Below are positions 9,515-32,472 of a stretch of 64,000 bases of DNA, in pieces. Origin of the DNA: Luteimonas sp. Lineage in GTDB: Bacteria > Pseudomonadota > Gammaproteobacteria > Xanthomonadales > Xanthomonadaceae. The translations under genes were made by a program, and so were the position numbers. Where the stretch lies: the NCBI GenBank assembly GCA_035444805.1, contig DAOMPM010000006.1, positions 1,069 to 65,068 of the forward strand, in the 5' to 3' direction. Each line of letters opens with the position of its first letter. The first letter of the stretch is position 1. The notes under the pieces were generated by a model. It did not search any database and had not been told where the DNA came from. It saw only the letters and a program-made list of their open reading frames with translations.

Positions 9515-9588
9515 AATCTCGGTCCTGGCCGGACCGTCCGGCAATCGCCGGTGTGTGCATCGGAACAGTCCTCGGGAGGGACCGGATC

Positions 9589-15960: not shown

Positions 15961-16857
15961 ATGCCCGAGACCAGCAGCACCCCCCCCGCCAGCGCCGAAG
16001 AACTGCGCGCGGCCATCCTCGCCCGCTACGACGGGCTGAGCAAACGGCTCAAGCAGATCGCGCGCTACGTTCTCGACGAGCCCAACGCGGTCGCGCTGGA
16101 GACCCTTGCCGTGCTGTCCGAGCGCTGCGGCGTGCAGCCGTCGGCGATCGTGCGCTTCGCCAAGTCGTTCGGCTTCGATGGCGCCACCCAGATGCAGCGG
16201 CTGTTCCGCGACGGACTGCTGTCGGCCAACACTTCGCTGGGCTACGGCGAGCGCATCCGCGAGTTCAGCAAGGCGGTCGACGGCAAGCGCGTCAGCGACC
16301 CGGCGCAGGTGCTGGCGGAGTTCATCGAGGGCAACCTGCTGGCACTGCGGCACCTGGGCGATGCGATCGACAAGCGGGAGTTGACCGAGGCGGTGAAGCT
16401 GATCAAGCAGGCCGACACCGTGTTCGTGGCCGGGTTCCGGCGCTCGTTCCCGGTCGCCGCCTACCTGGCCTACTCATTGCACCAGGTCGACAAGAAGACG
16501 GTGTTCATCGACAGCCTCGGCGGCATGACCCGGCAGCAGATCCACGGCATCACCCGCAACGACCTGCTGCTGGTGGTGAGCTACCAGCCCTACGCCGAGG
16601 AGGCGGTGCACCTGATCGACGTCGCGGTGGACAACCAGTGCAAGGTGCTGTCGATCAGCGACAGCCCGGTCAGCCCGGTCGCCAAGCCGGCCACGCTGGT
16701 ATTGCAGGTCAAGGAGGCGGAGATCCGCAAGTTCCGCTCGCTGTCGACCTCCATGTGCCTGGCGCAGGCGCTGGTGATCTCCTACGCGTTCTCCACGGCC
16801 ACCGCCACGCGCAACGCCTCGGCCCTTGAGACGCGTCGCGGGCCTGGCGAAAAATGA
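15961..16857 (+). CDS. iolR: RpiR/MurR family regulator IolR
   Basis: HTH (LSKRLKQIARY...VQPSAIVRFAKSFGF) plus SIS domain (GFRRSFPVA, SISDSPVSP); flanked by iol genes. Confidence 0.88.
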   Translation: MPETSSTPPASAEELRAAILARYDGLSKRLKQIARYVLDEPNAVALETLAVLSERCGVQPSAIVRFAKSFGFDGATQMQRLFRDGLLSANTSLGYGERIREFSKAVDGKRVSDPAQVLAEFIEGNLLALRHLGDAIDKRELTEAVKLIKQADTVFVAGFRRSFPVAAYLAYSLHQVDKKTVFIDSLGGMTRQQIHGITRNDLLLVVSYQPYAEEAVHLIDVAVDNQCKVLSISDSPVSPVAKPATLVLQVKEAEIRKFRSLSTSMCLAQALVISYAFSTATATRNASALETRRGPGEK

Positions 16858-18880: not shown

Positions 18881-18881
18881 C

Positions 18882-20732
18882 ATGGACGCGCAACCGCCCG
18901 GCACCGTCCGCCTGACCGCCGCCCAGGCCACCGTGCTCTGGCTGTCGGCGCAGCACGTCGTCGTCGACGGCGTGGAAGTGCCGTACTTCGCCGGCGCCTG
19001 GGCGATCTTCGGGCACGGCAACGTCGCCGCGCTGGGCGAGGCGCTGTACGCGGCGCGCGACGCGCTGCCCACCTTCCGCGCGCACAACGAACAGGCGATG
19101 GCACATGCCGCGATCGCCTATGCCAAGCAGATGCGGCGGCGGCGCGCGATGCTCTGCACCACGTCGATCGGACCCGGCGCGACGAACCTGGTCACCGCCG
19201 CCGCGCTCGCCCACGTCAACCGGCTGCCGGTGCTGCTGTTGCCCGGCGACGTCTATGCCAGCCGGCGCCCCGACCCGGTGCTGCAGCAAATCGAGGACTT
19301 CGGCGACGGCAACGTCTCGGCGAACGACTGCCTGCGTCCGGTGTCGCGCTGGTTCGACCGCATCACCCGGCCGGAGCAGATCCTCGACTCGCTGCCCAGG
19401 GCGCTGGCGACGCTGCTCGATCCAGCCGACTGCGGGCCGGCAACGCTGGCGTTCTGCCAGGACGTGCAGGCAGAGGCCTTCGACTATCCCGCGGACTTCT
19501 TCTCGCGCCGGGTCTGGCAGTTCCGCCGACAGCCGGCCGACCCGCGCGAGATCGACGCGCTCGCCGATGCCCTGCGCAACGCCAGGCGTCCGCTGCTGGT
19601 CGCCGGCGGCGGCGTGCTCTACAGCGGCGCGGAATCCTCGCTGACGGCGTTCGCGGAACGTACCGGCCTGGCGGTCGCCGAAACCCAGGCCGGCAAGGGC
19701 GCGCTACCGTGGAATCATGCCGGCGCCCTGGGATCGATCGGCGTAACCGGATCGAGTGCCGCCAACGCCGCCGCCGCGGACGCCGACGTGGTCGTCGGCA
19801 TCGGCACCCGGCTGCAGGACTTCACCACCGGCTCGCGCAGCCTGTTCCCCGACGCGCGACTGTTCCAGGTCAACGTGCAGACGTTCGACGCGCACAAGCA
19901 TGGCGCGACGCCCGTCGTCGGCGACGCACGTGCGGTGCTCGAAGCGCTCGATGCCGCGCTCGACGGCTGGCATTCGCCGCGCGGCGTCGACCGCGCGGCG
20001 GTGTCGCAATGGACCGCGGCGGTCGACGCGGCCACGCGCGGCGACGACACGACCAAGCTGCCCAGCGACGCCCAGGTCATCGGCGCGGTGCAGGCAGCGC
20101 TGGACGACGAGACCATCGTGGTCTGCGCCGCGGGCGGCCTGCCCGGCGAACTGCACAAGCTGTGGCGCACCGCGCGCAGCGACGGTTACCACCTCGAATA
20201 CGGCTACTCGTGCATGGGCTACGAGATCGCCGGCGGCCTTGGCGTGAAGCTGGCCGCACCTGAGCGCGAGGTGGTGGTGATGGTCGGCGACGGCAGCTAC
20301 CTGATGCTGAACTCCGAGCTGGCCACCTCGGTGATGCTTGGCCTGAAGCTGGTGGTGGTGCTGCTGGACAACCGCGGCTTCGGCTGCATCAACCGCCTGC
20401 AGCAGGCGACCGGCAGCCCCGGCTTCAACAACCTGCTGGCCGATGCGCACCACCAGGCGCTGCCCGACATCGACTTCGTCGGGCACGCGCGCAGCCTCGG
20501 CGCGAACGCCGAGAAAGCCGCGAACCTGGGCGAGCTGCGCGCCGCGCTGGCGCGCGCGCGCGACGCCGACCGCAGCACGGTGGTGGTCATCGACACCGAT
20601 CCGCTGAAGACCACCGAAGCCGGGGGCTGGTGGTGGGATGTCGCCATCCCGGAAGTCTCCGACCGCCCCGGCGTGAACGCCGCGCGCCGCGACTACGAGC
20701 AACGCGCGCGCATGAAGAGGAACCTGTCATGA
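18882..20732 (+). CDS. iolD: 3D-(3,5/4)-trihydroxycyclohexane-1,2-dione acylhydrolase
   Basis: IFGHGNVA, HNEQAMAH, TSIGPGATN, EYGYSCMGYEI, GDGSYLM ThDP motif. Confidence 0.95.
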   Translation: MDAQPPGTVRLTAAQATVLWLSAQHVVVDGVEVPYFAGAWAIFGHGNVAALGEALYAARDALPTFRAHNEQAMAHAAIAYAKQMRRRRAMLCTTSIGPGATNLVTAAALAHVNRLPVLLLPGDVYASRRPDPVLQQIEDFGDGNVSANDCLRPVSRWFDRITRPEQILDSLPRALATLLDPADCGPATLAFCQDVQAEAFDYPADFFSRRVWQFRRQPADPREIDALADALRNARRPLLVAGGGVLYSGAESSLTAFAERTGLAVAETQAGKGALPWNHAGALGSIGVTGSSAANAAAADADVVVGIGTRLQDFTTGSRSLFPDARLFQVNVQTFDAHKHGATPVVGDARAVLEALDAALDGWHSPRGVDRAAVSQWTAAVDAATRGDDTTKLPSDAQVIGAVQAALDDETIVVCAAGGLPGELHKLWRTARSDGYHLEYGYSCMGYEIAGGLGVKLAAPEREVVVMVGDGSYLMLNSELATSVMLGLKLVVVLLDNRGFGCINRLQQATGSPGFNNLLADAHHQALPDIDFVGHARSLGANAEKAANLGELRAALARARDADRSTVVVIDTDPLKTTEAGGWWWDVAIPEVSDRPGVNAARRDYEQRARMKRNLS

Positions 20733-21619
20733 GCATACGATTCGGCGTCAGCCCGATCGCCTGGGCCAACGACGACATGCCCGAGCTGGGCGGCGACACG
20801 CCGCTGGACAGCATCCTCGCCGACATCCGCGACGTCGGCTTCGAGGGCGTCGAGCTGGGCGGGAAGTTCCCGCGCGATGCCGCCGCGCTCAAGCCGCTGC
20901 TCGACGGCTACGGCCTCGACCTGATCGGCGGCTGGTACAGCGGCTCGCTGCTGGCGCAGGACGCCGACGCCGAGATCGCTGCACTGCAGCCGCACCTGCA
21001 GCTGCTCAAGGCAATGGGCAGCACCGTGTTCGTGTTCGCCGAGACCAGCAATGCGGTGCACGGCGACCGCAGCGTTGCGCTCACCGGCACGCCGCGCCTC
21101 GCCGAGGGCGACTGGCCCCGGTTCGGCGCGCGAATGACCGCGGTCGCCGACTACATCGCCGCGCAGGGACTGAGGTTCGCCTACCACCACCATCTGGGCA
21201 CGGTGGTCGAGCGCGCTGCGGACATGGACGCCTTCATCCGCCACACCGGGCCCTCGGTCGGCTTCACGCTCGATACCGGCCACGCTGCGCTCGGCGGCGT
21301 CGACTATCTCGGGGTGATCCGCGGGCATCCGAAGCGCATCGCACACGTCCACTGCAAGGACTTCCGTGCCGACACGTATCGCAGGCTGCGCGACAGCGGC
21401 GCTAGCTTCCTCGACGGCGTGCTCGCCGGCATGTTCACCGTGCCCGGCGACGGCGGCATCGACTACGGCGAAGTGATGCGCGCGCTGGCCGGGATCGGCT
21501 ACGAAGGCTGGATCGTGATCGAGGCGGAGCAGGATCCAGCCGCCGCGCCGCCCAAGCCCTACGCGGAGCTTGGCCTGCGCACGCTCAAGGCCGCGGCCAC
21601 GCAGGCGGGGTTGGCCTGA
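20729..21619 (+). CDS. iolE: myo-inosose-2 dehydratase
   Basis: GVSPIAWANDDMPELG, YHHHLGT, DTGH, HVHCKD, FTVPGDG, IEAEQDP. Confidence 0.95.
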   Translation: MSIRFGVSPIAWANDDMPELGGDTPLDSILADIRDVGFEGVELGGKFPRDAAALKPLLDGYGLDLIGGWYSGSLLAQDADAEIAALQPHLQLLKAMGSTVFVFAETSNAVHGDRSVALTGTPRLAEGDWPRFGARMTAVADYIAAQGLRFAYHHHLGTVVERAADMDAFIRHTGPSVGFTLDTGHAALGGVDYLGVIRGHPKRIAHVHCKDFRADTYRRLRDSGASFLDGVLAGMFTVPGDGGIDYGEVMRALAGIGYEGWIVIEAEQDPAAAPPKPYAELGLRTLKAAATQAGLA

Positions 21620-22440
21620 TGTCGCGCCTGCATGTCCGCCCGCACCCGCCCGCCGCCGACGGCACCGTGCTGTCGGTGACGCCGGAAAGCGCCGGCTGGT
21701 CGCACGTCGGCTTCCGGGTCGCGAAGCTGTCCGACGGGCAGCGCCACGACGGCGGCGAGGCCGGGCGCGAAACCTGCCTGGTGCTGGTTGCCGGCAGCGC
21801 GGACATCGTCGCCGGCGAGCATCGCTTCGACGGCGTCGGCGGCCGCGCGTCGCCGTTCGACGACCGCGCCCCGGGCGCGGTGTACGTGCCGGCCGGCGTG
21901 ACCTGGTCGGTACTCGCCCGCGGCGACGCCGAACTCGCGGTCTGCACCGCGCCGGGCAGCGGCGGCCGTGCGCCGCGGCTGATTGGCGACGCCGAGATGC
22001 CGCGCGAGATCCGCGGCAGCGGCACCAACACCCGCCACGTGCGCAACATCCTGCCGGAGACCGAACCGGCCGACGGCCTGCTGGTGGTCGAGGTGATCAC
22101 CCCCGCCGGCCACTGGTCCAGCTATCCGCCGCACAAGCACGACACCGCCACGCCCGGCGAGGAAACCGTGCTTGAGGAAACCTACTACCACCGCACCCGG
22201 CCGCGGCAGGGATTCGCGTTCCAGCGCGTCTACAGCGCCGACCGCGCGCTCGACGAGGCCATCGCGGTCGAGGACGGCGACGTGGTGATGGTGCCGCGCG
22301 GTTACCACCCGGTCGGCGCCGCGCACGGCTACGACCTGTACTACCTCAACGTCATGGCCGGCCCCGAGCGGCGCTGGCTGTTCCGCACCGATCCCGACCA
22401 CGCCTGGATCATCGCGCCTCCCCCAAGCCCCGGATCATGA
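21619..22440 (+). CDS. iolB: 5-deoxy-glucuronate isomerase
   Basis: VEVITPAGHWSSYPPHKHD, LEETYYH, VPRGYHP, YYLNVMAG. Confidence 0.95.
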   Translation: MSRLHVRPHPPAADGTVLSVTPESAGWSHVGFRVAKLSDGQRHDGGEAGRETCLVLVAGSADIVAGEHRFDGVGGRASPFDDRAPGAVYVPAGVTWSVLARGDAELAVCTAPGSGGRAPRLIGDAEMPREIRGSGTNTRHVRNILPETEPADGLLVVEVITPAGHWSSYPPHKHDTATPGEETVLEETYYHRTRPRQGFAFQRVYSADRALDEAIAVEDGDVVMVPRGYHPVGAAHGYDLYYLNVMAGPERRWLFRTDPDHAWIIAPPPSPGS

Positions 22441-23942
22441 GCATGCGCAACATCGAGCACTTCATCGACGGCCGCATCGTCGCCGGAACCTCCGGCCGAC
22501 ACGGCGACGTCTTCGACCCAAACAGCGGCCGCGTGCAGGCGAAGGTGGCGCTGGCTTCAGCGGCGGAACTCGACAAGGCCGTCGCCTGCGCCGCCGCCGC
22601 GCAGCCCGGCTGGGCGGCTGTCAACCCGCAGCGTCGCGCGCGGGTGATGTTCGAGTTCAGGCGCCTGCTCGAGGCGAACATGGAGGAGCTGGCCGCGCTG
22701 CTGTCGTCCGAGCACGGCAAGGTGCTGTCGGACGCGCGCGGCGACCTGCAGCGCGGGCTGGAGGTGATCGAATTCTCGTGCGGCATCCCGCACCTGCTCA
22801 AGGGCGAATACACCCAGGGCGCCGGCCCGGGCATCGACGTGTACTCGATGCGCCAGCCGCTGGGGGTGGTCGCCGGCATCACCCCGTTCAACTTCCCGGC
22901 GATGATCCCGATGTGGATGTTCGGCCCGGCGATCGCGTCGGGCAACGCCTTCATCCTCAAGCCCTCCGAGCGCGACCCGTCGGTCCCGGTCCGCCTCGCC
23001 GAACTGATGATCGAAGCCGGCCTGCCCGAAGGCGTGCTCAACGTGGTCCACGGCGACAAGGAGAGTGTCGACGCGATCCTGCGCCATCCCGGCATCAAGG
23101 CGGTCAGCTTCGTTGGTTCGTCCGACATCGCGCAATACGTCTGTGGACAGGGCGCGGCGCACGGCAAGCGCGTGCAGTGCATGGGCGGCGCCAAGAACCA
23201 CGGCATCGTGCTGCCCGACGCCGACCTCGACCACGCGGTGGCCGACATCATTGGCGCCGCCTACGGCTCCGCCGGTGAACGCTGCATGGCGCTGCCGGTG
23301 GTGGTGGCCGTGGGCGCGGCGACCGCGGACGCGCTGCGCGAGCGGCTGCTCGCCGCCATCGCGAAGCTTCGCTTCGGCGTCTCCACCGATCCGGACGCGC
23401 AGTACGGGCCGGTGGTCACCGCCGCGCACAAGGCGCGGATCGAGCAGTACATCCAGATCGGCGTCGACGAGGGCGCGGAACTGGTGGTTGACGGCCGCGG
23501 CTTCTCGCTGCCGGGGCACGAAGGCGGCTTCTTCCTCGGCCCCACCCTGTTCGACCGGGTCACATCGGACATGCAGACCTGGCGCGAGGAGATCTTCGGC
23601 CCGGTCCTGCAGATCATGCGCGCGGAAACGCTTGAGCAAGCCATCGCGCTGCCGACCACCCACCAGTACGGCAACGGCGTTGCGATCTTCACCCGCAACG
23701 GCGATGCCGCGCGCGAGTTCGCCGACCGGGTCGAGGTCGGCATGGTCGGCATCAACGTGCCGATCCCGGTGCCGGTGGCCTACCACAGCTTCGGCGGCTG
23801 GAAGCGCTCCGGCTTCGCCGACCTCAATCAGTACGGCATGGACGGCGTGCGCTTTTATACGCGCACCAAGGTGGTGACCCAGCGCTGGCCGCGCGACGGG
23901 GCCTCCGTCGGCAGCGCGTTCGTGATCCCGACGATGCAGTAG
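22437..23942 (+). CDS. iolA: Malonate/methylmalonate-semialdehyde dehydrogenase (CoA-acylating)
   Basis: ITPFNFPAMIP, KPSERDP, FVGSS, GGAKNH, GERCMA, EEIFGP, GINVPIP. Confidence 0.93.
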   Translation: MSMRNIEHFIDGRIVAGTSGRHGDVFDPNSGRVQAKVALASAAELDKAVACAAAAQPGWAAVNPQRRARVMFEFRRLLEANMEELAALLSSEHGKVLSDARGDLQRGLEVIEFSCGIPHLLKGEYTQGAGPGIDVYSMRQPLGVVAGITPFNFPAMIPMWMFGPAIASGNAFILKPSERDPSVPVRLAELMIEAGLPEGVLNVVHGDKESVDAILRHPGIKAVSFVGSSDIAQYVCGQGAAHGKRVQCMGGAKNHGIVLPDADLDHAVADIIGAAYGSAGERCMALPVVVAVGAATADALRERLLAAIAKLRFGVSTDPDAQYGPVVTAAHKARIEQYIQIGVDEGAELVVDGRGFSLPGHEGGFFLGPTLFDRVTSDMQTWREEIFGPVLQIMRAETLEQAIALPTTHQYGNGVAIFTRNGDAAREFADRVEVGMVGINVPIPVPVAYHSFGGWKRSGFADLNQYGMDGVRFYTRTKVVTQRWPRDGASVGSAFVIPTMQ

Positions 23943-24017
23943 CGGCATCGCCGGCGCGGCGCCGGGTTCGATCCATACCAGGGCAGGCGCCGTGAGCCGG
24001 TCCGGACACCAGGGGAA

Positions 24018-25373
24018 ATGCATTCCATGGCTTCCAGGCTGCTGAAATTCTTCGCAACCGGCGAGGACAAGCCGTTGATCGCCGACCAGGCGACCGTCGA
24101 CGCCATGTTCCGCAAGCACCGCTTCCGGGTGATGCTGGCGATCACCCTCGGCTACGGCGTGATCTACACCTGCCGCCTGGCGCTGGGGGTGGTGAAGAAG
24201 CCGTTGATCGACGAAGGCATCTTCAGCCCGGTGGAACTGGGCATGATCGGTTCGGCGCTCTACTACGCCTACGCGATCGGCAAGCTGACCAACGGCTTCC
24301 TCGCCGACCACGCCAACATGAAGCGGTTCCTCGCGGTGTCGTTCGTGCTCACGGCACTGTGCAACTTCGCGATGGGCCTGACCACGACCGTGTGGCTGGC
24401 GGTGATGATCTGGGGCCTGAACGGCTGGTTCCAGAGCTTCGGCGCACCGGGCGGCGTGGTCGCGATGACGGCGTGGTTCTCCAACCACGAGCGCGGTCGT
24501 GCCTACGGCATCTGGAGCACCGCGCATTCGATCGGCGAGGGGCTGACCTTCGTCGGCGTGGGCAGCGTGGTGGCTTGGCTGGGATGGCGCTGGGGCTACT
24601 TCGTGCCGGCGATGTTCGGCCTCGCCGCGGCCGCGATGATGTACTGGCTGGTGCAGGACCGGCCGCGCACGATGGGGCTGCCCAACGTCAACGACTGGAA
24701 GAACGACCACTTCCAGGCGAAGCCGAAGGCGGACATCAAGTCGGTCCTCGCCCTGCAGCTCTCGATCCTCAGGATCCCGGCGATCTGGGTGCTGTGCCTG
24801 TCTGCGGCAACGATCTACGTGACCCGCTACGCGATCAACTCGTGGGGCATCCTCTACCTGCAGGAGGAGCACGGCCTGTCGCTGCCGATGGCGGGTACGG
24901 TGCTGATGACCAGCACCCTGGCCGGCATCGCCGGCGCGGTCGCCTACGGGTTCACTTCCGACCTGGTGTTCAAGGCGCGCCGTCCGCCGACCAACCTGCT
25001 GTTCGCGATGCTCGAGATCGCCGGTCTGCTGCTGTTCTTCTACGGCCCCGGCACGATGCCGGCGCTGATCACCGGGATGGTGCTGTTCGGCGTCGGCCTG
25101 ACCGGCCTGGTCACCTCGCTCGGCGGGCTGTTCGCGGTCGACATCGCGCCCAAGCGCGTGGCCGGGGCGGCGATGGGCGTGATCGGCATCTTCGCCTACA
25201 TCGGCGCGGGCGTGCAGGAGTACGTCTCCGGCAAGCTGATCGAGGAAGGCATGACCATGGTCGACGGCGTGCGGGTGTACGACTTCGATCCGGTCATCGT
25301 GTTCTGGGTCGGCGCGTCGGTGGTGTCGATGCTGCTCGCGGCCAGCCTCTGGCGCACCGCACTGAGGGATTGA
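24018..25373 (+). CDS. MFS organophosphate:Pi antiporter (OPA family, GlpT/UhpT/PgtP-like)
   Basis: About 12 TM; YTCR, IGKLTNGFLAD, NGWFQ, ERG..GIWSTAHSIG, YVTRYAINSW align by eye with GlpT motifs. Confidence 0.85.
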   Translation: MHSMASRLLKFFATGEDKPLIADQATVDAMFRKHRFRVMLAITLGYGVIYTCRLALGVVKKPLIDEGIFSPVELGMIGSALYYAYAIGKLTNGFLADHANMKRFLAVSFVLTALCNFAMGLTTTVWLAVMIWGLNGWFQSFGAPGGVVAMTAWFSNHERGRAYGIWSTAHSIGEGLTFVGVGSVVAWLGWRWGYFVPAMFGLAAAAMMYWLVQDRPRTMGLPNVNDWKNDHFQAKPKADIKSVLALQLSILRIPAIWVLCLSAATIYVTRYAINSWGILYLQEEHGLSLPMAGTVLMTSTLAGIAGAVAYGFTSDLVFKARRPPTNLLFAMLEIAGLLLFFYGPGTMPALITGMVLFGVGLTGLVTSLGGLFAVDIAPKRVAGAAMGVIGIFAYIGAGVQEYVSGKLIEEGMTMVDGVRVYDFDPVIVFWVGASVVSMLLAASLWRTALRD

Positions 25374-25380
25374 TCCGGAG

Positions 25381-26202
25381 ATGGCGATCGATGCATCCAG
25401 CGAATTGAAGGCCATGGTCGACGCCGCCCGCGCGGCTGGCGAGGGACTGCTGCGGCATTTTTCGCAGCTCGCCGACCTGGAGGTACAGACTAAGGCCGGC
25501 CCGACCGACCTGGTGTCGATTGCCGATGAAGAGGCCGAACGCACCGTGCGTTCGCTGCTGGCGGCGGCGCGTCCCGCGTACGCGTTCCTCGGCGAGGAGA
25601 GCGGCATCGGCGGCGGCGGTGACCTTTCGCAGTGCTGGATCGTCGACCCGCTCGACGGCACCACCAACTTCCTGTTCGGTGGTCCACTGTGGGGCGTGAA
25701 CGTCGCGCTGGCGCGCGACGGCGAGGTCGTCGCCGGCGTGACCTACCTGCCGGTGCACGATGAACTGTTCGTCGCCGAGCGCGGCAAGGGCGCGTGGCTG
25801 GGCAACCGCCGCATCCGGGTATCGACCCGCCGCACGCTGATCCAGAGCGTGCTCGCCTGCGGCATCCCCTACGCCGACAAGCCCGACCACCCGGTCTTCG
25901 CCAGGGAGATGGCGCTGCTCAGCGCCAAGGTCGCCGGCATCCGGCGCACCGGCGCCTGCTCCATCGACATGGCGTACGTCGCGGCCGGGCGCTGGGACGC
26001 GTACTGGGAACGTGCGCTCAACGCCTGGGACATGGCGCCGGGCGTGATCCTGGTCGAGGAGGCGGGCGGCATCGCGACCTCGGTCACCGGCGCCGCGCTT
26101 GACCTGGACGCAGGCAACGTCTGCGTCAGCAACGGAGCGATCCACACCGCTCTGCTCGACCGGCTCAACGAAGCGCTCCACCCGGGGGAGAACACAACAT
26201 GA
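25381..26202 (+). CDS. Inositol monophosphatase family protein
   Basis: GEESG, WIVDPLDGTTNF, WDMAPG motifs. Confidence 0.93.
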   Translation: MAIDASSELKAMVDAARAAGEGLLRHFSQLADLEVQTKAGPTDLVSIADEEAERTVRSLLAAARPAYAFLGEESGIGGGGDLSQCWIVDPLDGTTNFLFGGPLWGVNVALARDGEVVAGVTYLPVHDELFVAERGKGAWLGNRRIRVSTRRTLIQSVLACGIPYADKPDHPVFAREMALLSAKVAGIRRTGACSIDMAYVAAGRWDAYWERALNAWDMAPGVILVEEAGGIATSVTGAALDLDAGNVCVSNGAIHTALLDRLNEALHPGENTT

Positions 26203-27641
26203 AGCTGCAGCGCCGTACCTTCCTCGCCGCGACCGGACTGGCCGGCATGTTCGGGGCCATGCCCAGGGTGCTGGCCAGGGCGCTCGGCTATCCGCGGGCA
26301 CTTCAGGGCCCGATGCTCGGCGCACCGGGCCCGCACCAGCTGTCGGTCTGGGTGCGCGCCAGCGGCGCCTTCGAAGTCCTGCTGGAAGTCGCGGCCGACC
26401 GCGAGTTCCGGCGCGTGGTGCAGACCGCGAGCGCGGTGGCGTCGCCGGAGGACGACTGCTGCCTGGTGCTGCGCGCCGAAGGCCTGCAGCCCGACACCGA
26501 CTACTGGTACCGCCTGAAGTACGACGGCGTCGGCGACCGCTACCAGTTCCTGCCGCACCGCGCCAGGACCGCGCCGGCGGGCGCGGCTGCGTTCCGGGTC
26601 GCATTCGGCTCCTGCTGCCGCATCCAGTACGACCCGCAGCAGCGCATCTGGAACACCGTCCGCGCGCTCGAACCGGACATGTTCCTGTGGCTCGGCGACA
26701 ACATCTACGCCGACAGCGACCAGCCCGCGGCGATCACCGATCTCTACGCCCGAGGCCGCGTGGTGCCGAACCTGGAGCCGCTGCTGCGCTCGGTGCCACA
26801 GCTGGCCACCTGGGATGACCACGATTTCGGCTACAACGATTCCGACGGCCTCAATCCGGTCAAACGCGAGTCGCTGCGCATCTTCAAACGCTTCTGGGCG
26901 AACCCGTCCTACGGCGAGCGGGACAATCCAGGCATCTACTTCAAGCAGCACTATGGCGGCGTCGATTTCTTCGTGCTCGACGGGCGCTACCATCGCGATC
27001 CGACCGACAGGCCCGACAACGCGGGCAAGACCATGCTCGGCGCCAGGCAGAAGGCCTGGCTCAAGCGCGAGCTCAAGGCCAGCACCGCGCCGTTCAAGGT
27101 GCTCGCGATCGGCGGCGGCTGGTCGTCGGCCGAAAACGAGAAGGGCGGCGATTCGTGGGCGGTCTACATGACCGAGCGCAACGAAATCTTCGACTTCATC
27201 CGCGACCAGGACATCGGCGGCGTAGTCTGCATCTCCGGCGATTCGCACATGGGCGAGCTCAACTGCGTTCCGTGGTCGGAGCGCGGCGGCTACGACATCT
27301 ACGACCTGTGCTCGTCGCCGCTGGCGCAGATGCCCGCGTCCAAGCACACCCGCCAGGCCCCGGAAGTACGCGTGCGCGATGTATGGACGCGGTCGGTGAA
27401 CGTCGGCCTGCTGCACTTCGACCTGACCGGGGCCACGCCAACACTCACCTGCACCCTGCACGACGATCTGAGCGAGGCGGTGTGGGAGCCGCTGGTGCTC
27501 ACCCCCGACGACCTGAAGAACGGCGCCCGCACCTGGGACAGCAAGTCAGACCCAGTGGAACTGCAGCGGCTGGAGCGGTTCAGGCGCGGCGGCGGCTACT
27601 ACGGCTTCGATCCGCCGGAGGGCTGGCCCGGGGCCCGTTAA
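26199..27641 (+). CDS. phoD: PhoD-family alkaline phosphatase with Tat signal
   Basis: RRTFLA twin-arginine signal; FGSC, WLGDNIYAD, TWDDHD, LDGRY, ISGDSH motifs; ATGA overlap with IMPase. Confidence 0.85.
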   Translation: MKLQRRTFLAATGLAGMFGAMPRVLARALGYPRALQGPMLGAPGPHQLSVWVRASGAFEVLLEVAADREFRRVVQTASAVASPEDDCCLVLRAEGLQPDTDYWYRLKYDGVGDRYQFLPHRARTAPAGAAAFRVAFGSCCRIQYDPQQRIWNTVRALEPDMFLWLGDNIYADSDQPAAITDLYARGRVVPNLEPLLRSVPQLATWDDHDFGYNDSDGLNPVKRESLRIFKRFWANPSYGERDNPGIYFKQHYGGVDFFVLDGRYHRDPTDRPDNAGKTMLGARQKAWLKRELKASTAPFKVLAIGGGWSSAENEKGGDSWAVYMTERNEIFDFIRDQDIGGVVCISGDSHMGELNCVPWSERGGYDIYDLCSSPLAQMPASKHTRQAPEVRVRDVWTRSVNVGLLHFDLTGATPTLTCTLHDDLSEAVWEPLVLTPDDLKNGARTWDSKSDPVELQRLERFRRGGGYYGFDPPEGWPGAR

Positions 27642-27678: not shown

Positions 27679-27781
27679 GTCATTCCCGCGAAAGCGGGAA
27701 TCCAGCTTTTTCTTGCGCAAGGTCCATGGATAACCAGACATCCGTTTGTTGAAAAGCGATTCCCGCTTTGGCGGAAATGAC
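27679..27781. repeat. GTCATTCCCGCG-type palindromic doublet between convergent genes
   Basis: GTCATTCCCGCGAAAGCGGGAATCCA and degenerate inverse GATTCCCGCTTTGGCGGAAATGAC. Confidence 0.8.
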
Positions 27782-27811: not shown

Positions 27812-29854
27812 CTAGCCGCCCACACTACGGCGAAGAGTGACCAGCACCTGCCCCGGCGTGCGGTGGCTGCGGGTTTCGCGCTCGTCCAGCGGAACCTGCG
27901 CACGCAGGCCGTCGTACTTGTCGCGCGCCTCGGAGAAGCGGCGCCCGAACAGATCGCGCATTTCGGCGCGCACGCGCCAACCGCCACCCAGGCGCTTTTC
28001 CGCGAACACGTTCCAGGACAGGTCGTCACGCTCGTGCCTGACCTCGTCATGGCTGTATTTGGTCTCGCGCTCGGCCAGCTCCAGTTCAATGCCCCAGGTC
28101 ATGCGCTGGGCAGGCAGGATCTGCGTCAGCCTGATCCGACCTTCCAGCGGTGACTCGCCCGAGATCCCGCGGGTCTCGTTGGTGGTCGGGTCGACCACCG
28201 AGCTGGTCCGCCACAGCATCTTCGAGGAAAGCCGGAACCCGGTCATCCCGATCCTGTCCAGCGATCCCGACAGTTCCAGTTCGAGCGTGTCGCGCCGACC
28301 GTCCCCGATGTTGCCCGGTGCGTCGTACACGTCCTCGCCGGACACCACCGGCACGCGATCGACGACATCGCTGATGCGCTCGTGGGTCCACGTCACGCCG
28401 AGCGCGCCATCCTCGCCGAAGCTCCGCTCCCAGCCGGCGACCAGGCGCCAGGTCTTGTCCGGCTCCAGTTCCGCATTACCGGCGCTGACCACGCCGGTGT
28501 CGAGCGCGGCCGAAGCGACGAAGTCCCCGAAGTCCAGCTGCCCCACCTCGCGCGACAGTCCCAGGTGGAACCCGTTCCGGTCGTCGCGCTCCCAGTACCC
28601 GGTCAGCCGCGGCTTGAAGTAGACGAAGTCACGCTCCATCGGCGTATCGCCGCTTTGGCGCAGGGCGGACGTCTCGACCCTCACGCCGGCCTCGACGGTC
28701 AATGCCTTGGCCGGCTGCCACGCTGCAGCGAGCATCGCCTCCGCCCGCCGCTCCTCGATCCGCACATCCGAACCGGGCAGATCGATCCGCTCGCCGTTCT
28801 CGCTCAGGCGCGCCTGGCTTTCGAGGAAGTTGAACGCACCCTCCAGTCCTGCCGACAGGCGCAGCCGCGGGGACCACTCGCGGCCCAACTCGACCCGCAG
28901 CAGGGTCTCGCCGCTGTCGGTATCTTCCTCGAAGCGCTCCTCGTCGTCGTCCTCGTGCGACAGGGACAATGCCTGCAGTCGCCCCAGCCGCTGGCTGGCC
29001 ATCAGTTCCAGCCGCGAGTGCTCGCCGAGGTGGCGCACGTAGCGCCCGCCGATCTCGAACTCCCGCGTGTCCTCGGTGTCATCCGCGATTTCGGTGCGCG
29101 TGCCGGTGGCGCGATCGAATCGCGTCATGGCCTCGTCGACGCGCTCGCCGCGCAACGCGGCGTTGACCCCGAGGCTGCCGCCAGCCAGCGGCTGCCGCCA
29201 GCTGGCGCTGGATCCGTACACGTCGTTGACCCGGCGGGTCCGGGTGTCCAGGTCTTCCAGCAGCGCACCGTCGGGCGCGAAGGCGCGGATCCTGCCCGGC
29301 CCCGTGTCGTCGTCCAGCTCCCGCTCCGCCGACAGCGCGAATTCCAGCACCCGGTCGTCGCGTCGGCGCCCGTACTCGAATTGCCCTTGCGGACCGGCCC
29401 AGCCATCGCTGGCGATCGCGACGCCAAGCTGCGTCGCCATTTCCGAGGTGGCCGCCCGTTCGCGCACCACGTTCGCCAGCACCGCGTGGCCGCCCATGTC
29501 GATGCCGGGCGCACCGCCACGGATCACTTCGATGCGCTCCACCGAAGCGGCCGGAATCCGCTGCAGCAGGCTGACGATATCCTCGCGCCGACTGGTGGGC
29601 TGGGCACCGTCGATCAGCACGTTGCCGCGCGCGCCCGCGTAGCCGCGCACGTCGGTATCGGCCTCGACGATGCTGAAACCGGGCAGGCGCAGCACCATGT
29701 CATGGGCGTTGGCAGGCGCAGCCGCGGCAAAACTGTCGGCCTCGTATACGGTCACGCCCTGGGTCTCCGGCGCGGACCCATTGTCCTGCGCCGTGCACGG
29801 CGATGCCGCAAGCGCGAGCAAAAGCAGGGGAACAAGGGATAAGCGGTCCGGCAT
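27812..29854 (-). CDS. TonB-dependent receptor-like outer membrane protein
   Basis: Signal peptide; plug-like LRLPGF...RG..GNVLIDG...IPAASVERIEVIRG; GNAELEP; beta-strand patterning. Confidence 0.8.
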   Translation of the reverse strand: MPDRLSLVPLLLLALAASPCTAQDNGSAPETQGVTVYEADSFAAAAPANAHDMVLRLPGFSIVEADTDVRGYAGARGNVLIDGAQPTSRREDIVSLLQRIPAASVERIEVIRGGAPGIDMGGHAVLANVVRERAATSEMATQLGVAIASDGWAGPQGQFEYGRRRDDRVLEFALSAERELDDDTGPGRIRAFAPDGALLEDLDTRTRRVNDVYGSSASWRQPLAGGSLGVNAALRGERVDEAMTRFDRATGTRTEIADDTEDTREFEIGGRYVRHLGEHSRLELMASQRLGRLQALSLSHEDDDEERFEEDTDSGETLLRVELGREWSPRLRLSAGLEGAFNFLESQARLSENGERIDLPGSDVRIEERRAEAMLAAAWQPAKALTVEAGVRVETSALRQSGDTPMERDFVYFKPRLTGYWERDDRNGFHLGLSREVGQLDFGDFVASAALDTGVVSAGNAELEPDKTWRLVAGWERSFGEDGALGVTWTHERISDVVDRVPVVSGEDVYDAPGNIGDGRRDTLELELSGSLDRIGMTGFRLSSKMLWRTSSVVDPTTNETRGISGESPLEGRIRLTQILPAQRMTWGIELELAERETKYSHDEVRHERDDLSWNVFAEKRLGGGWRVRAEMRDLFGRRFSEARDKYDGLRAQVPLDERETRSHRTPGQVLVTLRRSVGG

Positions 29855-29962: not shown

Positions 29963-30292
29963 ATGAACACGACCTCCTCCCGTCCCAGGCACGTCCTCCC
30001 GCTCGCGCTTGGCCTCGCGCTCACGGCTCTCTTCGCCCCGGCCATCCAGGCTGGCGACGACGACCACATCGAAGCGCGCCGGCTGCTCCAGCGCGGCGAG
30101 ATCCTGCCGCTCAACCATATCCTCCAGATCGTGCAGCGTCGCGTGCCAGGCGACGTCATCGATGTGGAGCTGGACCGCAGCAGCAAGCACGGCTGGGAGT
30201 ACGAGGTGAAGGTGCTGACCTCGACCGGGCGCGTGCTGGAAGTCGACCTCAACGCCCGCACCGGGGAAATCCGCAAGATCGAGGACGACTGA
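29963..30292 (+). CDS. PepSY domain-containing secreted protein
   Basis: Signal peptide; GEILPL...VPGDVIDVELD...YEVKVL..GRVLEVDLNARTGEI. Confidence 0.88.
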   Translation: MNTTSSRPRHVLPLALGLALTALFAPAIQAGDDDHIEARRLLQRGEILPLNHILQIVQRRVPGDVIDVELDRSSKHGWEYEVKVLTSTGRVLEVDLNARTGEIRKIEDD

Positions 30293-30960
30293 TGCGTTGC
30301 CTCGTCGTCGAGGACGATCCCGACATCCAGGCCGACCTGAGGCACGGGCTCGAGGCTTCGGGTTTCGCAGTCGATACCGCCGGCGACGGCAGGGACGCCT
30401 GGTTCCTCGGCGACACCGAGGACTACGACGCCGTGGTCCTCGACCTCGGCCTGCCGCAGCTCGACGGCCTGTCGGTGCTGCGACGCTGGCGTTCGGCCGG
30501 CCGCGCTTTCCCGGTCATCGTGCTCTCGGCCAGGGGCGACTGGACCGAGAAGGTGGAAGGCATCGAGGCCGGCGCGGACGACTACATGGGCAAGCCGTTC
30601 CAGATGGGCGAACTGCTCGCACGCGTGCGCGGACTGACCCGGCGCGGTGCCGGACGCACCAGCAACGTCGTCGCCGTCGGCAGGCTGCGGTTGGACACGG
30701 CGCGGATGAGCGCCACCTTCGACGGTGCACCGGCGCAGCTGTCGCCGCTGGAATTCCGGCTGCTCGACCACCTCGCCCACTCGCCGGACCGCCCGGTGCC
30801 CGCCGGGGAGCTCGCCGAACAGCTGTATGGCGTCGGTGACGCCGATGCCGGCGACACCAATGCCATCGAGGCCATCGTCGCCCGGCTGCGGCGCAAGTTC
30901 GGCGCCAGGATCATCGCCACCCGGCGCGGATTCGGCTACCTGCCAGGCGATCCGTCGTGA
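30292..30960 (+). CDS. OmpR-family response regulator
   Basis: LVVEDD, DLGLPQLDG, GADDYMGKPF, winged-helix IEAIVARLRRK/TRRGFGY. Confidence 0.93.
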   Translation: MRCLVVEDDPDIQADLRHGLEASGFAVDTAGDGRDAWFLGDTEDYDAVVLDLGLPQLDGLSVLRRWRSAGRAFPVIVLSARGDWTEKVEGIEAGADDYMGKPFQMGELLARVRGLTRRGAGRTSNVVAVGRLRLDTARMSATFDGAPAQLSPLEFRLLDHLAHSPDRPVPAGELAEQLYGVGDADAGDTNAIEAIVARLRRKFGARIIATRRGFGYLPGDPS

Positions 30961-32303
30961 TCACGCGCTCGCTGCACTGGCGTCTGCTGGCGGGCGCCGC
31001 GGCGGCGATCCTGCTGGCGCTGTGCGTGGCCTGGGCGTTGATGACGCTGCTGTTCGAACGGCACCTCGAGCGCAGGCTCGAAAGCGAGCTCACCCGCGAC
31101 GGGCTGCGCCTGGTCGCCGCACTGGAGCTTGATGCCGGCGGCGCACCGCTGGTCGAGCCGGTGCCGATGGACCCGCGCCTGCAGACGCCCGCGGGCGGCT
31201 ACTACTGGCAGGTGTCGACGCCATCCGGCGCCGCACGCTCGCGTTCGCTGTGGGATGCCGACCTGCCCGCGCGCGATACCGCGCCGACCGACGACTGGAA
31301 GCTGCGGCACCAGGACGGTCCGTTCGGCGAACCCATCTCGCTGCTCGAGCGCGTGGTCGCGCCGGACGCCGGCGGACCCGACGTGCTGGTGCAGCTGGCG
31401 CAGGATCGTGCGCCGCTCACCGCCGCACGCGACGAATTCGGCCGCGAGCTGGCGCTGTTCCTGTTCGCGCTGTGGCTGGTGCTGTCGGCGGCTGCGTGGC
31501 TGCAGGTTCGCCTCGGCCTGCGCCCGCTGCGCCGCATCCGCGGCGACCTGGATCGGCTGCGCGACAGCGCACAGGCGCGGCTACCGGAAGCACACCTGCG
31601 CGAGATCCAGCCGCTCACCGAGGCGATCAACTCGCTCGCCGACGCGCGCGAAAACGACCTCGACCTCGCCCGGCGGCGCGCCGGCGACCTCGCGCACGGG
31701 CTGAAGACGCCGCTGTCGGCGATCGCCGCGCAAAGCCGCCGCGCGCGGGAAGACGGTGCCGCCCAGGCAGCCGACGGGCTGGATCGCGCCGTCGCGGCCA
31801 TGCGCCGCACGATCGATTCCGAACTGGCGCGAGCTCGGATCGCCGCAATCAGACGCGGCCCTGGCGGATCGAGCCAGGTGCGAACGACGGTGGAACGCCT
31901 GGTCAACGTGATCGAGCACACGGACCAGGGCGGGCAACTGGCGTTCAGTATCGACATCCCGGGCACGCTGGAGCTCGCCGTGCAACCGGACGACCTGTCC
32001 GAAATCATCGGCGCGGTGCTGGAGAACGCCTCCCGCCATGCCCGGCGACACGTGCGAATCAGCGGAGCCGCCGGTCCCGAATGGACCACGCTGAGCGTGG
32101 AGGACGATGGGCCGGGCATCAGCGACGACCGGCTTGTGCAAGTGATGGAGCGCGGCGGCAGAATGGACGAGAGCGGAACCGGGCTGGGGCTCGCGATCGC
32201 GCGCGACCTGACCGAGGCCACGGGGGGACGCATCCGCCTCTCGCGTTCCGGACTGGGCGGATTCGCCGTCGTCTTCATCTGGGGCCCGGCCTCGCCCGAA
32301 TGA
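30957..32303 (+). CDS. Sensor histidine kinase
   Basis: Two TM helices, HAMP, H-box DLAHGLKTPL, N-box LENA, DDGPG, GTGLGLAI. Confidence 0.93.
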   Translation: MITRSLHWRLLAGAAAAILLALCVAWALMTLLFERHLERRLESELTRDGLRLVAALELDAGGAPLVEPVPMDPRLQTPAGGYYWQVSTPSGAARSRSLWDADLPARDTAPTDDWKLRHQDGPFGEPISLLERVVAPDAGGPDVLVQLAQDRAPLTAARDEFGRELALFLFALWLVLSAAAWLQVRLGLRPLRRIRGDLDRLRDSAQARLPEAHLREIQPLTEAINSLADARENDLDLARRRAGDLAHGLKTPLSAIAAQSRRAREDGAAQAADGLDRAVAAMRRTIDSELARARIAAIRRGPGGSSQVRTTVERLVNVIEHTDQGGQLAFSIDIPGTLELAVQPDDLSEIIGAVLENASRHARRHVRISGAAGPEWTTLSVEDDGPGISDDRLVQVMERGGRMDESGTGLGLAIARDLTEATGGRIRLSRSGLGGFAVVFIWGPASPE

Positions 32304-32367: not shown

Positions 32368-32472
32368 CCTGCGAACGTGGGCTATCAGTCGCCGCGTGCG
32401 ATCTTTCCCTGGACCACCCCCGCATGTATCCGGGGCCGCGGAGTCCAACCACTTCAATCAGGGAGAACCCCC

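What the first reader, a model, noticed from the sequence alone, without database searches (positions are those of the whole stretch)
24018..26202. GlpT/UhpT-type antiporter plus inositol monophosphatase stand where an inositol transporter is expected: candidate inositol-phosphate:Pi antiport
Seen: the iol cluster has no inositol ABC transporter or sugar-porter MFS. Directly after iolA comes an OPA-family MFS in which the GlpT substrate residues appear conserved by eye (R45 = YTCR, K80 = IGKL, H165 = TAHS, R269 = YVTR). It is followed 7 bp later by a cytoplasmic IMPase (DPLDGT). Established: OPA carriers exchange phosphorylated substrates for Pi. Inference: the cell imports inositol monophosphate (the end product of the acid phytase) and dephosphorylates it inside. 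I know no characterised bacterial InsP1 carrier of this family.
Basis: partly seen in the sequence, partly recalled or inferred. Interest (0 to 1): 0.8.

Follow-up and report, generated by a model that had tools for sequence, protein, structure and literature searches.

The report
Candidate inositol-phosphate importer in iol operon
A Luteimonas-like soil bacterium has, in place of an ordinary inositol transporter, a GlpT-type phosphate-exchange carrier fused into its inositol-burning operon next to a cytoplasmic inositol monophosphatase and phytate-degrading enzymes, which points to an uncharacterised route for importing inositol phosphates released from phytate.

Summary
Window 24018-25373 encodes an OPA-family MFS carrier that keeps GlpT R45, K80, H165 and R269. 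A leaderless IMPase paralog follows 7 bp later, then a Tat-exported PhoD-like phosphatase with a 4-bp overlap. The three genes end an iolCDEBA operon, beside an AppA-type phytase and TonB-dependent receptors.

The genome (91.5% complete) has no IolT-type, ABC-type or SSF-type inositol importer.

The carrier belongs to a 100/100-supported OPA clade that excludes E. coli GlpT, UhpT and UhpC, and it reaches no NCBIfam cut-off.

In 251 Lysobacteraceae genomes, the carrier occurs in 9, always next to iolD. The two iolD-positive genomes that lack it carry an OprB porin and an ABC system instead, and no phosphatases.

Of 80 metagenomic orthologous loci, 67 show inositol-catabolic and/or phytase/phosphatase neighbours. 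An IMPase (24 loci) or an atypical PfkB (37 loci) lies immediately downstream, never both.

The best reading is an inositol-monophosphate:Pi antiporter feeding a dedicated cytoplasmic IMPase (about 0.65). I found no described bacterial carrier of this kind. Substrate identity, isomer and phosphate number remain untested.

The parts
24018..25373 (+). OPA-family MFS carrier (P0001). It is the proposed inositol-phosphate:Pi antiporter. An alternative start lies at 24027.
   Evidence: Pfam MFS_1 at 150 bits. The best NCBIfam hits are UhpC, PgtP and GlpT, all far below their cut-offs. E 8.9e-46 to GlpT 1pw4, with R45, K80, H165 and R269 kept. It lies in a separate 100/100 clade.
25381..26202 (+). 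Cytoplasmic inositol-monophosphatase-family enzyme (P0002), 7 bp after the carrier.
   Evidence: Pfam Inositol_P at 204 bits. The SuhB equivalog scores 175 bits against a 332 cut-off. The best PDB match is SuhB 3luz at E 3.5e-66. It has no signal peptide and carries the DPLDGT, GEE and WDxxxG motifs. It is one of four IMPase-family genes in the genome.
26199..27641 (+). Tat-exported PhoD-like phosphatase (P0005), with a 4-bp overlap on the IMPase gene.
   Evidence: Pfam PhoD and PhoD_N. The QRRTFL twin-arginine leader is present. The match to B. subtilis PhoD 2yeq is weak, E 5e-19. It is syntenic with the carrier in Luteimonas-type and Sphingopyxis loci.
27682..27701 (+). Terminator-like hairpin that closes the operon.
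   Evidence: It is the only + strand terminator-like site between the stop of iolA and the convergent receptor gene.
16943..23942 (+). iolC(+DUF2090)-iolD-iolE-iolB-iolA catabolic genes upstream in the same transcription direction.
   Evidence: Pfam PfkB+DUF2090, TPP enzyme, AP_endonuc_2, KduI/IolB and Aldedh.
15961..16857 (+). RpiR-type (HTH_6 + SIS) regulator, the likely IolR.
   Evidence: Pfam. TGGAA-N6-TTCCA-like palindromes lie at 15845, 15869 and 16884.
13843..15818 (-). Two tandem IolG-type (Gfo/Idh/MocA) dehydrogenases.
   Evidence: Pfam, translation and 59% mutual identity.
12522..13826 (+). Exported AppA/Hafnia-type histidine acid phytase (RHGVRPP).
   Evidence: Translations. PDB hits are Hafnia, Citrobacter and E. 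coli phytases at E 1e-59 to 1e-53, stronger than glucose-1-phosphatase.
9553..12162 (+). TonB-dependent receptor (Xanth-Caul type) upstream of the phytase.
   Evidence: TIGR01782 at 615 bits. Palindrome-like sites lie at 9469 and 9499.
27812..29854 (-). Small TonB-dependent-receptor-like outer-membrane protein, convergent with the operon.
   Evidence: Pfam Plug and TonB_dep_Rec_b-barrel, both weak. It holds the same position in related loci.
30292..32303 (+). OmpR-type response regulator (30292-30960) and histidine kinase (30957-32303).
   Evidence: Pfam, start site, syntenic in Luteimonas-type loci.
32377..33759 (+). Exported metallophosphoesterase.
   Evidence: Pfam Metallophos. Orthologues of 45-50% identity lie in 9 of the 80 carrier loci, in several of them as the next recognised gene downstream of the carrier.

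Best explanation
The carrier is an organophosphate:Pi antiporter of the OPA family whose physiological substrate is an inositol phosphate, most likely a monophosphate.

Proposed sequence of events:
1. Phytate or lower inositol phosphates cross the outer membrane through the adjacent TonB-dependent receptors.
2. The exported AppA-type phytase and the Tat-exported PhoD-like phosphatase trim them in the periplasm.
3. The remaining InsP1 is exchanged for cytoplasmic Pi by the carrier.
4. The dedicated IMPase paralog hydrolyses InsP1 inside the cell. This yields myo-inositol for IolG/IolEDBCA and regenerates the Pi that drives the next exchange.

The net gain is carbon, not phosphorus. That fits control by the IolR-type (RpiR) regulator rather than by Pho.

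Shown here: family membership, conserved phosphate-binding residues, gene order, phylogenetic separation, co-occurrence and the lack of another inositol importer.

Inferred: the substrate, the exchange mode, the order of the periplasmic steps and the regulation.
For: (1) Family and residues. The alignment to GlpT runs over residues 24-400 of 451. R45, K80, H165 and R269, plus Y38, Y42, Y76, Y266 and Y393, are invariant across the whole clade.

(2) Not an orthologue of a known carrier. All NCBIfam equivalog and subfamily cut-offs are missed by a wide margin. The clade has 100/100 support and excludes E. coli GlpT, UhpT and UhpC. The clade-specific changes are K46L, D274S, E299T, W138A and Y362T/S/N.

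(3) Operon structure. The spacings are 75 bp, 7 bp and a 4-bp overlap. The only terminator-like site follows the PhoD-like gene.

(4) Family-level co-occurrence in 251 Lysobacteraceae genomes. The carrier is in 9, each time within about 5 kb of iolD. iolD is in 11. The two exceptions have an OprB porin and a Peripla_BP_4/BPD_transp_2/ABC_tran system in the iol cluster, and no IMPase, PhoD-like gene or phytase.

(5) The same linkage appears outside the family:
- Sphingopyxis and genome G347 have iol genes, then the carrier, then the PhoD-like gene, with an IMPase and a beta-propeller phytase nearby.
- Genome G099, from another gammaproteobacterial family, has iolG, iolB, the carrier and an IMPase, plus a separate SSF symporter.

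(6) 80 metagenome loci at 57-85% identity. 55 have inositol genes, 53 have an IMPase, phytase, PhoD-like gene or metallophosphoesterase, and 41 have both. An IMPase lies directly downstream in 24.

(7) The IMPase is an additional paralog, 43% identical to the SuhB-like copy on contig C10.

(8) The genome has no IolT-type, ABC-type or SSF-type inositol importer.

(9) Perfect TGGAA-N6-TTCCA palindromes, the motif found at the iol promoters here, lie in the iolA-carrier spacers of relatives.

(10) There is a precedent for InsP1 capture at the outer membrane: the PusCD preprint, 10.64898/2026.09.03.749221.
Against: There is no transport or enzyme assay. All the evidence is comparative.

Two exported phosphatases could in principle strip InsP completely in the periplasm, which would leave free inositol as the only product.

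IMPases are classically poor on Ins(2)P, the usual end product of AppA-type phytases (from my own knowledge, not tested here).

In 37 of 80 orthologous loci the downstream partner is an atypical PfkB rather than an IMPase. A transporter paired with a kinase is what one expects for an unphosphorylated solute.

The GlpT salt-bridge residues K46, D274 and E299 are lost, so the mechanism may differ from GlpT.

The wider clade also has members with other neighbours (GDPD, Pgt-like regulators), so specificity within the clade is not uniform.

The genome is only 91.5% complete, so an importer could lie in the missing part.
Confidence: 0.65

Rival explanations
1. The carrier imports another organophosphate released by the local phosphoesterases and exchanges it for Pi. 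Candidates are glycerophosphoinositol, glycerol-3-phosphate, an inositol bis- or trisphosphate, or a phosphosugar from phosphoinositol lipids.
For: OPA chemistry is retained. One member of the wider clade is followed by a GDPD gene. A metallophosphoesterase is a frequent neighbour, and calcineurin-like enzymes act on inositol phospholipids in the PusCD preprint. Beta-propeller phytases, found next to orthologues, are known from the literature as I recall it to stop at InsP3.
Against: No GDPD gene occurs in any of the 80 orthologous loci. In the own genome the only GlpQ/GDPD-like match lies on another contig, C80. The adjacent cytoplasmic enzyme is an IMPase, whose family acts on monophosphates. 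The linkage is to inositol catabolism, not to glp genes. The carrier falls outside the GlpT/UhpT clade.
Confidence: 0.14
2. The carrier has been recruited as a proton-coupled importer of free myo-inositol, scyllo-inositol or chiro-inositol. The periplasmic phosphatases finish dephosphorylation outside the cytoplasm, and the IMPase has another role.
For: It is the only inner-membrane transporter in the locus, and the genome has no other inositol importer. Two exported phosphatases are present. The GlpT charge network K46/D274/E299 is lost. In 37 related loci a PfkB kinase follows the carrier directly, which is the classic pairing for a free sugar.
Against: Both phosphate-clamping arginines, together with K80 and H165, are invariant across the whole clade. 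An extra cytoplasmic IMPase is translationally close in 24 loci. Dedicated SSF or ABC-type transporter genes coexist with the carrier in some loci. Where the canonical inositol ABC system is present instead, every phosphatase gene is absent too.
Confidence: 0.1
3. The protein is a UhpC-like sensor. It detects external inositol phosphate and signals to the nearby two-component system rather than carrying bulk flux.
For: The best NCBIfam hit by score is the UhpC subfamily model. An RR/HK pair is syntenic in Luteimonas-type loci.
Against: It scores 257 bits against the 564-bit cut-off and falls outside the UhpC clade. The RR is OmpR-type, not UhpA-type. Sphingopyxis, G347 and G099 loci show no RR/HK match within the 8-10 kb flanks examined. 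It sits inside the catabolic operon, ahead of an IMPase.
Confidence: 0.03
4. The gene cluster association is fortuitous or decayed. The carrier is a generic phosphate or organophosphate exchanger with no specific link to inositol.
For: Thirteen of 80 loci showed no recognised inositol or phosphatase neighbour with my query set. The sister representatives P0127 and P0138 sit in an unrelated context.
Against: Seven of those 13 are contigs under 4 kb. The two long ones I examined (L122, L129) carry a PfkB after the carrier, with a Zn-ADH and a metallophosphoesterase (L122) or a TonB receptor (L129). In all, 8 of the 13 have the PfkB directly downstream. P0127 and P0138 are frameshifted at the C-terminus. 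Co-occurrence with iolD is 9 of 9 against 0 of 240.
Confidence: 0.03

Closest known systems
E. coli GlpT (sn-glycerol-3-phosphate:Pi antiporter, PDB 1pw4; TC 2.A.1.4)
   Same: Homology extends over residues 24-400 of the 451-aa protein (E 8.9e-46). R45, K80, H165 and R269 and the surrounding tyrosines are conserved. Like glpT-glpQ, it is genetically paired with enzymes that generate or consume its substrate.
   Different: It lies in another clade (100/100 support) and scores 210 bits against a 633-bit equivalog cut-off. K46, D274 and E299 are replaced by L, S and T. The bulky W138 and Y362 are replaced by A and T. Its neighbours are iol genes, an IMPase and phytases, not glp genes.
E. coli UhpT / UhpC (hexose-6-phosphate:Pi antiporter and its sensor paralog)
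   Same: OPA family. The substrate would be similar in size, a six-membered ring carrying one phosphate. Position 138 is small, as in UhpT (G) and UhpC (S).
   Different: It scores 151 bits against 497 (UhpT) and 257 against 564 (UhpC). It falls outside their clade. No UhpA/UhpB-type partners are present.
Canonical bacterial inositol importers (IolT sugar porters of B. subtilis, Salmonella and Corynebacterium; the IbpA-type ABC system of Caulobacter and Sinorhizobium)
   Same: It holds the same position in an iol cluster. It is the only inner-membrane carrier of the locus.
   Different: It belongs to a different MFS family and has no Sugar_tr match. It retains phosphate-binding arginines. It always comes with phosphatases. 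In related Lysobacteraceae the ABC+OprB module replaces the whole carrier/IMPase/PhoD/phytase/TBDR set.
PusCD TonB-dependent transporter-lipoprotein complexes of Flavobacterium johnsoniae (bioRxiv 10.64898/2026.09.03.749221)
   Same: Gram-negative uptake of inositol phosphate (IP1) and glycerophosphoinositol through a TonB-dependent outer-membrane step, with periplasmic phosphoesterases encoded alongside.
   Different: That system is an outer-membrane route for phosphorus nutrition. No inner-membrane InsP carrier is described, and hydrolysis is periplasmic. The present locus is tied to carbon catabolism and adds an inner-membrane OPA carrier and a cytoplasmic IMPase.

Membership tests
OPA family of the MFS (TC 2.A.1.4) | Full-length MFS_1 domain and homology to a solved OPA carrier | tested here: met
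   Pfam MFS_1 at 150 bits over residues 43-399. 1pw4 at E 8.9e-46 and SLC37A4 at E 3e-23.
OPA family of the MFS (TC 2.A.1.4) | Paired substrate-binding arginines (GlpT R45 and R269) with K80 and H165 | tested here: met
   R53, K89, H170 and R270. They are invariant in all iol-linked relatives aligned.
OPA family of the MFS (TC 2.A.1.4) | Pi-linked exchange of an organophosphate | not testable with these tools
   Needs proteoliposome or whole-cell exchange assays.
GlpT (G3P:Pi antiporter) orthologue | Reaches the equivalog score and groups with GlpT in a tree | tested here: not met
   TIGR00712 scores 210 against 633 and NF008433 scores 197 against 748. It is on the opposite side of a 100/100 split.
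UhpT orthologue | Reaches the equivalog score and groups with UhpT | tested here: not met
   NF007107 scores 151 against 497. Tree.
UhpC-type sensor | Subfamily score, and a UhpB/UhpA-type partner system | tested here: not met
   NF008661 scores 257 against 564. The neighbouring RR is OmpR-type. It falls outside the UhpC clade.
PgtP (phosphoglycerate transporter) | Equivalog score | tested here: not met
   NF047787 scores 141 against 750 and TIGR00881 scores 243 against 408.
IolT-type sugar-porter inositol transporter | Sugar_tr (PF00083) domain | tested here: not met
   Only MFS_1 is reported for P0001. P0001 is not among the genome's PF00083 hits.
Inositol monophosphatase family (PF00459), for the downstream gene | Domain match and the metal/substrate motifs (GEE, DPxDGT, WDxxxG) | tested here: met
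   204 bits. FLGEESG, WIVDPLDGT and AWDMAPG are in the translation. PDB IMPase/SuhB hits reach E 3.5e-66.
SuhB / inositol-1-monophosphatase equivalog, for the downstream gene | NCBIfam equivalog cut-off | tested here: not met
   NF008027 scores 175 against 332. A separate SuhB-like paralog lies on contig C10.

The most novel reading that the evidence does not exclude
This OPA clade is a substrate class of its own: inositol-phosphate:Pi antiporters that supply the missing inner-membrane step of bacterial phytate and phosphoinositol carbon catabolism. It is found in Lysobacteraceae, another gammaproteobacterial family, sphingomonads, and many unclassified metagenome contigs with G+C from 43% to 69%.

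In Luteimonas-type bacteria it would be the sole entry route. Such strains would then grow on inositol phosphates but not on free inositol.

The mutually exclusive IMPase or PfkB partner would mark two alternative cytoplasmic fates of the imported ester.
Probability: 0.4. Interest if true: 0.78.

Novelty: new variant of a known kind. Interest (0 to 1): 0.64.

Why it matters
Phytate and other inositol phosphates are a dominant pool of organic phosphorus and a large carbon pool in soils, manures and guts. Bacterial use of them is normally pictured in two steps: full dephosphorylation outside the cell, then uptake of free inositol.

An inner-membrane InsP:Pi exchanger with a dedicated cytoplasmic IMPase would add a new substrate class to a textbook transporter family. 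It would also explain how the phytase-resistant last phosphate is handled. It predicts organisms that consume inositol phosphates as a carbon source without net phosphorus uptake.

It also gives annotators a rule. OPA carriers of this clade are currently named 'MFS transporter' or 'UhpC-like sensor'. The main iol survey did not count transporters that lack homology to characterised inositol facilitators when it defined clusters (PMC9430895).

The claim can be tested directly with standard exchange assays.

Tried and rejected
(1) A canonical inositol importer elsewhere in the genome. PF00083, PF13407 and an SSF query gave only MHS-type or drug-type MFS proteins, LacI regulators and a 24% SSF hit. 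I rejected this, with the caveat that the genome is 91.5% complete.

(2) Orthology to GlpT, UhpT, UhpC or PgtP. Scores and the tree reject it.

(3) Non-iol sister lineages as counter-evidence. P0127 and P0138 turned out to be frameshifted at the C-terminus.

(4) A glycerophosphodiester link. No GDPD gene lies in any of the 80 loci.

(5) The aldehyde dehydrogenase next to P0132 as an iolA. It is only 32% identical, so it is not iolA.

(6) Neighbours of P0131, P0136, P0139 and P0141. The contigs are short and the Pfam results were uninformative.

(7) Literature. Ten full-text searches found no described bacterial InsP carrier (one search failed on syntax).

(9) The palindrome-like site overlapping the carrier start (24012-24027) has 2 mismatches and a short spacer. 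I treat it as chance. Relatives have real ones.

(10) Structure prediction was not run. The tool returns no coordinates, so it could not show which of the changed residues line the cavity.
Full report
**What is there**

The window is contig C6:1069-65068 of a 3.3-Mb, 155-contig, 91.5%-complete genome. Its closest relatives are Luteimonas and Pseudoxanthomonas, in the Lysobacteraceae.

I called genes from GC3 periodicity and identified them with Pfam, NCBIfam and PDB searches. The map is:

| Coordinates | Strand | Gene |
|---|---|---|
| 9553-12162 | + | TonB-dependent receptor |
| 12522-13826 | + | exported AppA/Hafnia-type histidine acid phytase (RHGVRPP) |
| 13843-15818 | - | two tandem iolG-type dehydrogenases |
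| 15961-16857 | + | RpiR-type regulator |
| 16943-23942 | + | iolC(+DUF2090), iolD, iolE, iolB, iolA |
| 24018-25373 | + | the OPA-family MFS carrier |
| 25381-26202 | + | an IMPase-family protein |
| 26199-27641 | + | a PhoD-like phosphatase with a QRRTFL Tat leader |
| 27682-27701 | + | a terminator-like hairpin |
| 27812-29854 | - | a small convergent TonB-receptor-like gene |
| 30292-32303 | + | an OmpR-type response regulator and a histidine kinase |
| 32377-33759 | + | an exported metallophosphoesterase |

**Check of the observation**

Every element holds.
- The spacer between the carrier and the IMPase is 7 bp.
- iolA ends 75 bp before the carrier, with no terminator-like site between them.
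- The alignment to the GlpT structure 1pw4 (E 8.9e-46) places GlpT R45, K80, H165 and R269 on R53 (YTCR), K89 (IGKL), H170 (TAHS) and R270 (YVTR).
- The IMPase has no leader and carries GEE, DPLDGT and WDxxxG.
- The cluster has no ABC or sugar-porter gene.

I extended the last point to the whole assembly. The PF00083 hits are MHS-type or drug-type MFS proteins. The PF13407 hits are LacI regulators. An SSF inositol-type query finds only a 24% match.

**What kind of OPA carrier it is**

The best NCBIfam hits are UhpC (257 bits against a 564 cut-off), PgtP subfamily (243 against 408), GlpT (210 against 633), UhpT (151 against 497) and the PgtP equivalog (141 against 750). None is reached.

I built a careful maximum-likelihood tree of 70 OPA proteins. 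They comprised full-length representatives from an exhaustive HMMER scan of 1.84 billion proteins, E. coli GlpT, UhpT and UhpC, and context-labelled relatives. The tree splits the family into two 100/100 halves. GlpT, UhpT and UhpC lie in one half and the query lies in the other. No member of the query's half that I scanned reaches a curated cut-off.

Inside that half, the Luteimonas-type, sphingomonad and G099 proteins form one subclade. All of them are linked to iol genes. Its sister pair, P0127 and P0138, sits in an unrelated context, but both proteins are frameshifted at the C-terminus.

A column comparison shows two things:
- The whole clade keeps the phosphate clamp: R45, R269, K80 and H165, plus tyrosines 38, 42, 76, 266 and 393.
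- The clade has replaced K46, D274 and E299 by L, S and T, and the bulky W138 and Y362 by A and T/S/N.

My inference is that phosphate recognition is kept while the cavity is roomier and differently gated.

**Comparative genomics**

*(a) Within the family.* Of 251 Lysobacteraceae genomes, 9 have the carrier and 11 have iolD. All 9 carriers lie within about 5 kb of iolD. The two iolD-positive genomes without the carrier (G559 and G590) have a different transport module. The G590 iol cluster holds an OprB porin and a Peripla_BP_4/BPD_transp_2/ABC_tran system, and has no IMPase, PhoD-like gene or phytase. The transport module has therefore been swapped as a block:
- porin + ABC system for free inositol, or
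- TonB receptor + phytase + PhoD-like phosphatase + OPA carrier + IMPase.

*(b) Outside the family.*
- Sphingopyxis sp. J-6 and genome G347 have iolG, RpiR, iolCDEB(A), the carrier and the PhoD-like gene.
- S. panaciterrae adds an IMPase and a beta-propeller phytase (PF02333, 422 bits).
- G099, from another gammaproteobacterial family (52% identity), has iolG, iolB, the carrier and an IMPase. It also has a separate SSF symporter, a TonB receptor and an RpiR regulator.
- A 45%-identical protein from elsewhere in the large clade precedes a transaldolase-like gene, iolB and iolD.

*(c) Metagenomes.* A metagenome scan returned 80 loci with carriers of 57-85% identity.
- 55 have inositol-catabolic genes.
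- 53 have an IMPase, phytase, PhoD-like gene or metallophosphoesterase.
- 41 have both.
- Of the 13 without either, 7 are contigs under 4 kb. The two long ones I examined (L122, L129) carry a PfkB after the carrier, with a Zn-ADH and a metallophosphoesterase (L122) or a TonB receptor (L129). Eight of the 13 have the PfkB directly downstream.
- Several distinct gene orders occur, so the association does not come from one inherited operon.
- The gene immediately downstream of the carrier is an IMPase in 24 loci and an atypical PfkB of about 296 aa in 37 loci. No locus has both.
- No locus has a GDPD gene.

*(d) Regulation.* TGGAA-N6-TTCCA-like palindromes with AT-rich spacers lie upstream of the first receptor (9469, 9499), in the iolG/RpiR divergent region (15845, 15869) and upstream of iolC (16884). 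Relatives with longer iolA-carrier spacers carry perfect copies there, such as TGGAATGATTCTTCCA and TGGAAGAAAACTTCCA. I infer that the carrier module belongs to the inositol regulon.

*(e) The IMPase.* It is an extra paralog. The genome has four IMPase-family genes, including a SuhB-like copy on C10 that is 43% identical.

**Mechanism proposed**

Inositol phosphates enter the periplasm through the TonB-dependent receptors. The phytase and the PhoD-like enzyme trim them there. The residual monophosphate is exchanged for cytoplasmic Pi by the carrier. The IMPase releases inositol for the iol pathway and returns the Pi that drives the next cycle.

This mirrors the logic of GlpT and UhpT. It yields carbon without net phosphorus, which matches control by IolR rather than Pho.

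Shown: family, residues, operon structure, phylogeny, co-occurrence and the absence of alternatives. Inferred: substrate identity, exchange mode, isomer and the periplasmic sequence of steps.

**Weak points**

- There is no assay of any kind.
- Two exported phosphatases might complete hydrolysis outside the cytoplasm.
- From my own knowledge, IMPases are classically weak on Ins(2)P, the usual AppA-type end product.
- The PfkB partner in half of the orthologous loci would also fit a free-solute-plus-kinase logic.
- Other members of the wider clade have GDPD or Pgt-like neighbours, so specificity varies within it.
- 8.5% of the genome is unseen.

**Literature**

Ten full-text searches found no described bacterial inositol-phosphate carrier.
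- The organic-phosphorus review PMC9306846 lists GlpT and UhpT only for their classical substrates.
- The iol survey PMC9430895 did not count transporters without homology to characterised inositol facilitators when defining clusters.
- The gut phytate paper PMC7618129 assumes uptake by an inositol transporter.
- The PusCD preprint shows TonB-dependent capture of IP1 and GroPI at the outer membrane, but describes no inner-membrane carrier.

Earlier notes from this scan flag similar OPA-inositol loci in other phyla. I treated them as leads. My own scan reproduces the pattern independently for this clade.

**Verdict**

This is a new predicted substrate class within a known transporter family, and it awaits a simple biochemical test.

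Noticed in passing
metagenome loci L076-L129 (e.g. L122:5434-6324, L129:11390-12289, L078:3993-4901): In 37 of 80 orthologous loci the gene directly after the carrier is an atypical PfkB-family protein of about 296 aa (Pfam only 39-55 bits) instead of an IMPase. The two partners never co-occur. These loci also carry Zn-ADH and several iolG-like genes, in a layout that earlier notes of this scan call the Thermotoga-type inositol pathway. What the PfkB does with the imported compound is unexplained.
   Followed up: partly
genome contig C40:5600-25800 (outside the window): The bin holds a second complete copy of the locus (TBDR, phytase, iolG x2, RpiR, iolCDEBA, carrier, IMPase, PhoD-like, RR/HK) at about 82% DNA identity. 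C40 is the lowest-GC contig of the assembly, 64.5% against a median of 69.7%. It is either a laterally acquired duplicate or a contig from a second Luteimonas-like organism in the bin.
   Followed up: partly
L043 (G590:C1:3283100-3303000): A related Lysobacteraceae genome has an iol cluster with an OprB carbohydrate porin and a three-gene ABC system, and no phosphatases. It is a natural comparison strain for growth tests.
   Followed up: yes
L028:8001-9401 and L029 (protein P0127); P0138: The closest non-iol-linked relatives of the carrier are frameshifted after about residue 350. The same frameshift is seen in an NCBI assembly and in an independent Logan contig. They are probably decaying genes.
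   Followed up: partly
window 33860-34537 (-): A family-I inorganic pyrophosphatase-like ORF has a long hydrophobic N-terminal leader (…LLALLPALLLVLPAVAADRG). It lies just downstream of the 34537-35829 gene that another first-stage note calls a phytase-like lipoprotein. An exported PPase would be unusual.
   Followed up: no
window 9469-9514, 15845-15884, 16884-16899; relatives L054, L056, L062, L063, L072, L088: TGGAA-N6-TTCCA palindromes with AT-rich centres recur at the receptor/phytase promoter, the iolG/RpiR divergent promoter and the iolC promoter. In relatives they recur in the iolA-carrier spacer, often next to an AAATGAAATA motif. This is a candidate IolR (RpiR-type) operator.
   Followed up: partly
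L042 (G367:C66:2500-22400): A 40%-identical member of the same large OPA clade is divergently paired with a solute-binding-protein-like gene, a histidine kinase and a sigma-54 response regulator. The layout resembles PgtABC-PgtP regulation, although the carrier fails the PgtP equivalog (174 bits against 750).
   Followed up: partly
window 25381-26202: The best solved-structure match of the iol-linked IMPase is the alphaproteobacterial Bartonella SuhB (E 3.5e-66). It scores above the other SuhB and IMPase entries (next best E 5.6e-56). Together with the sphingomonad synteny, this hints that the module moved between Alpha- and Gammaproteobacteria.
   Followed up: no
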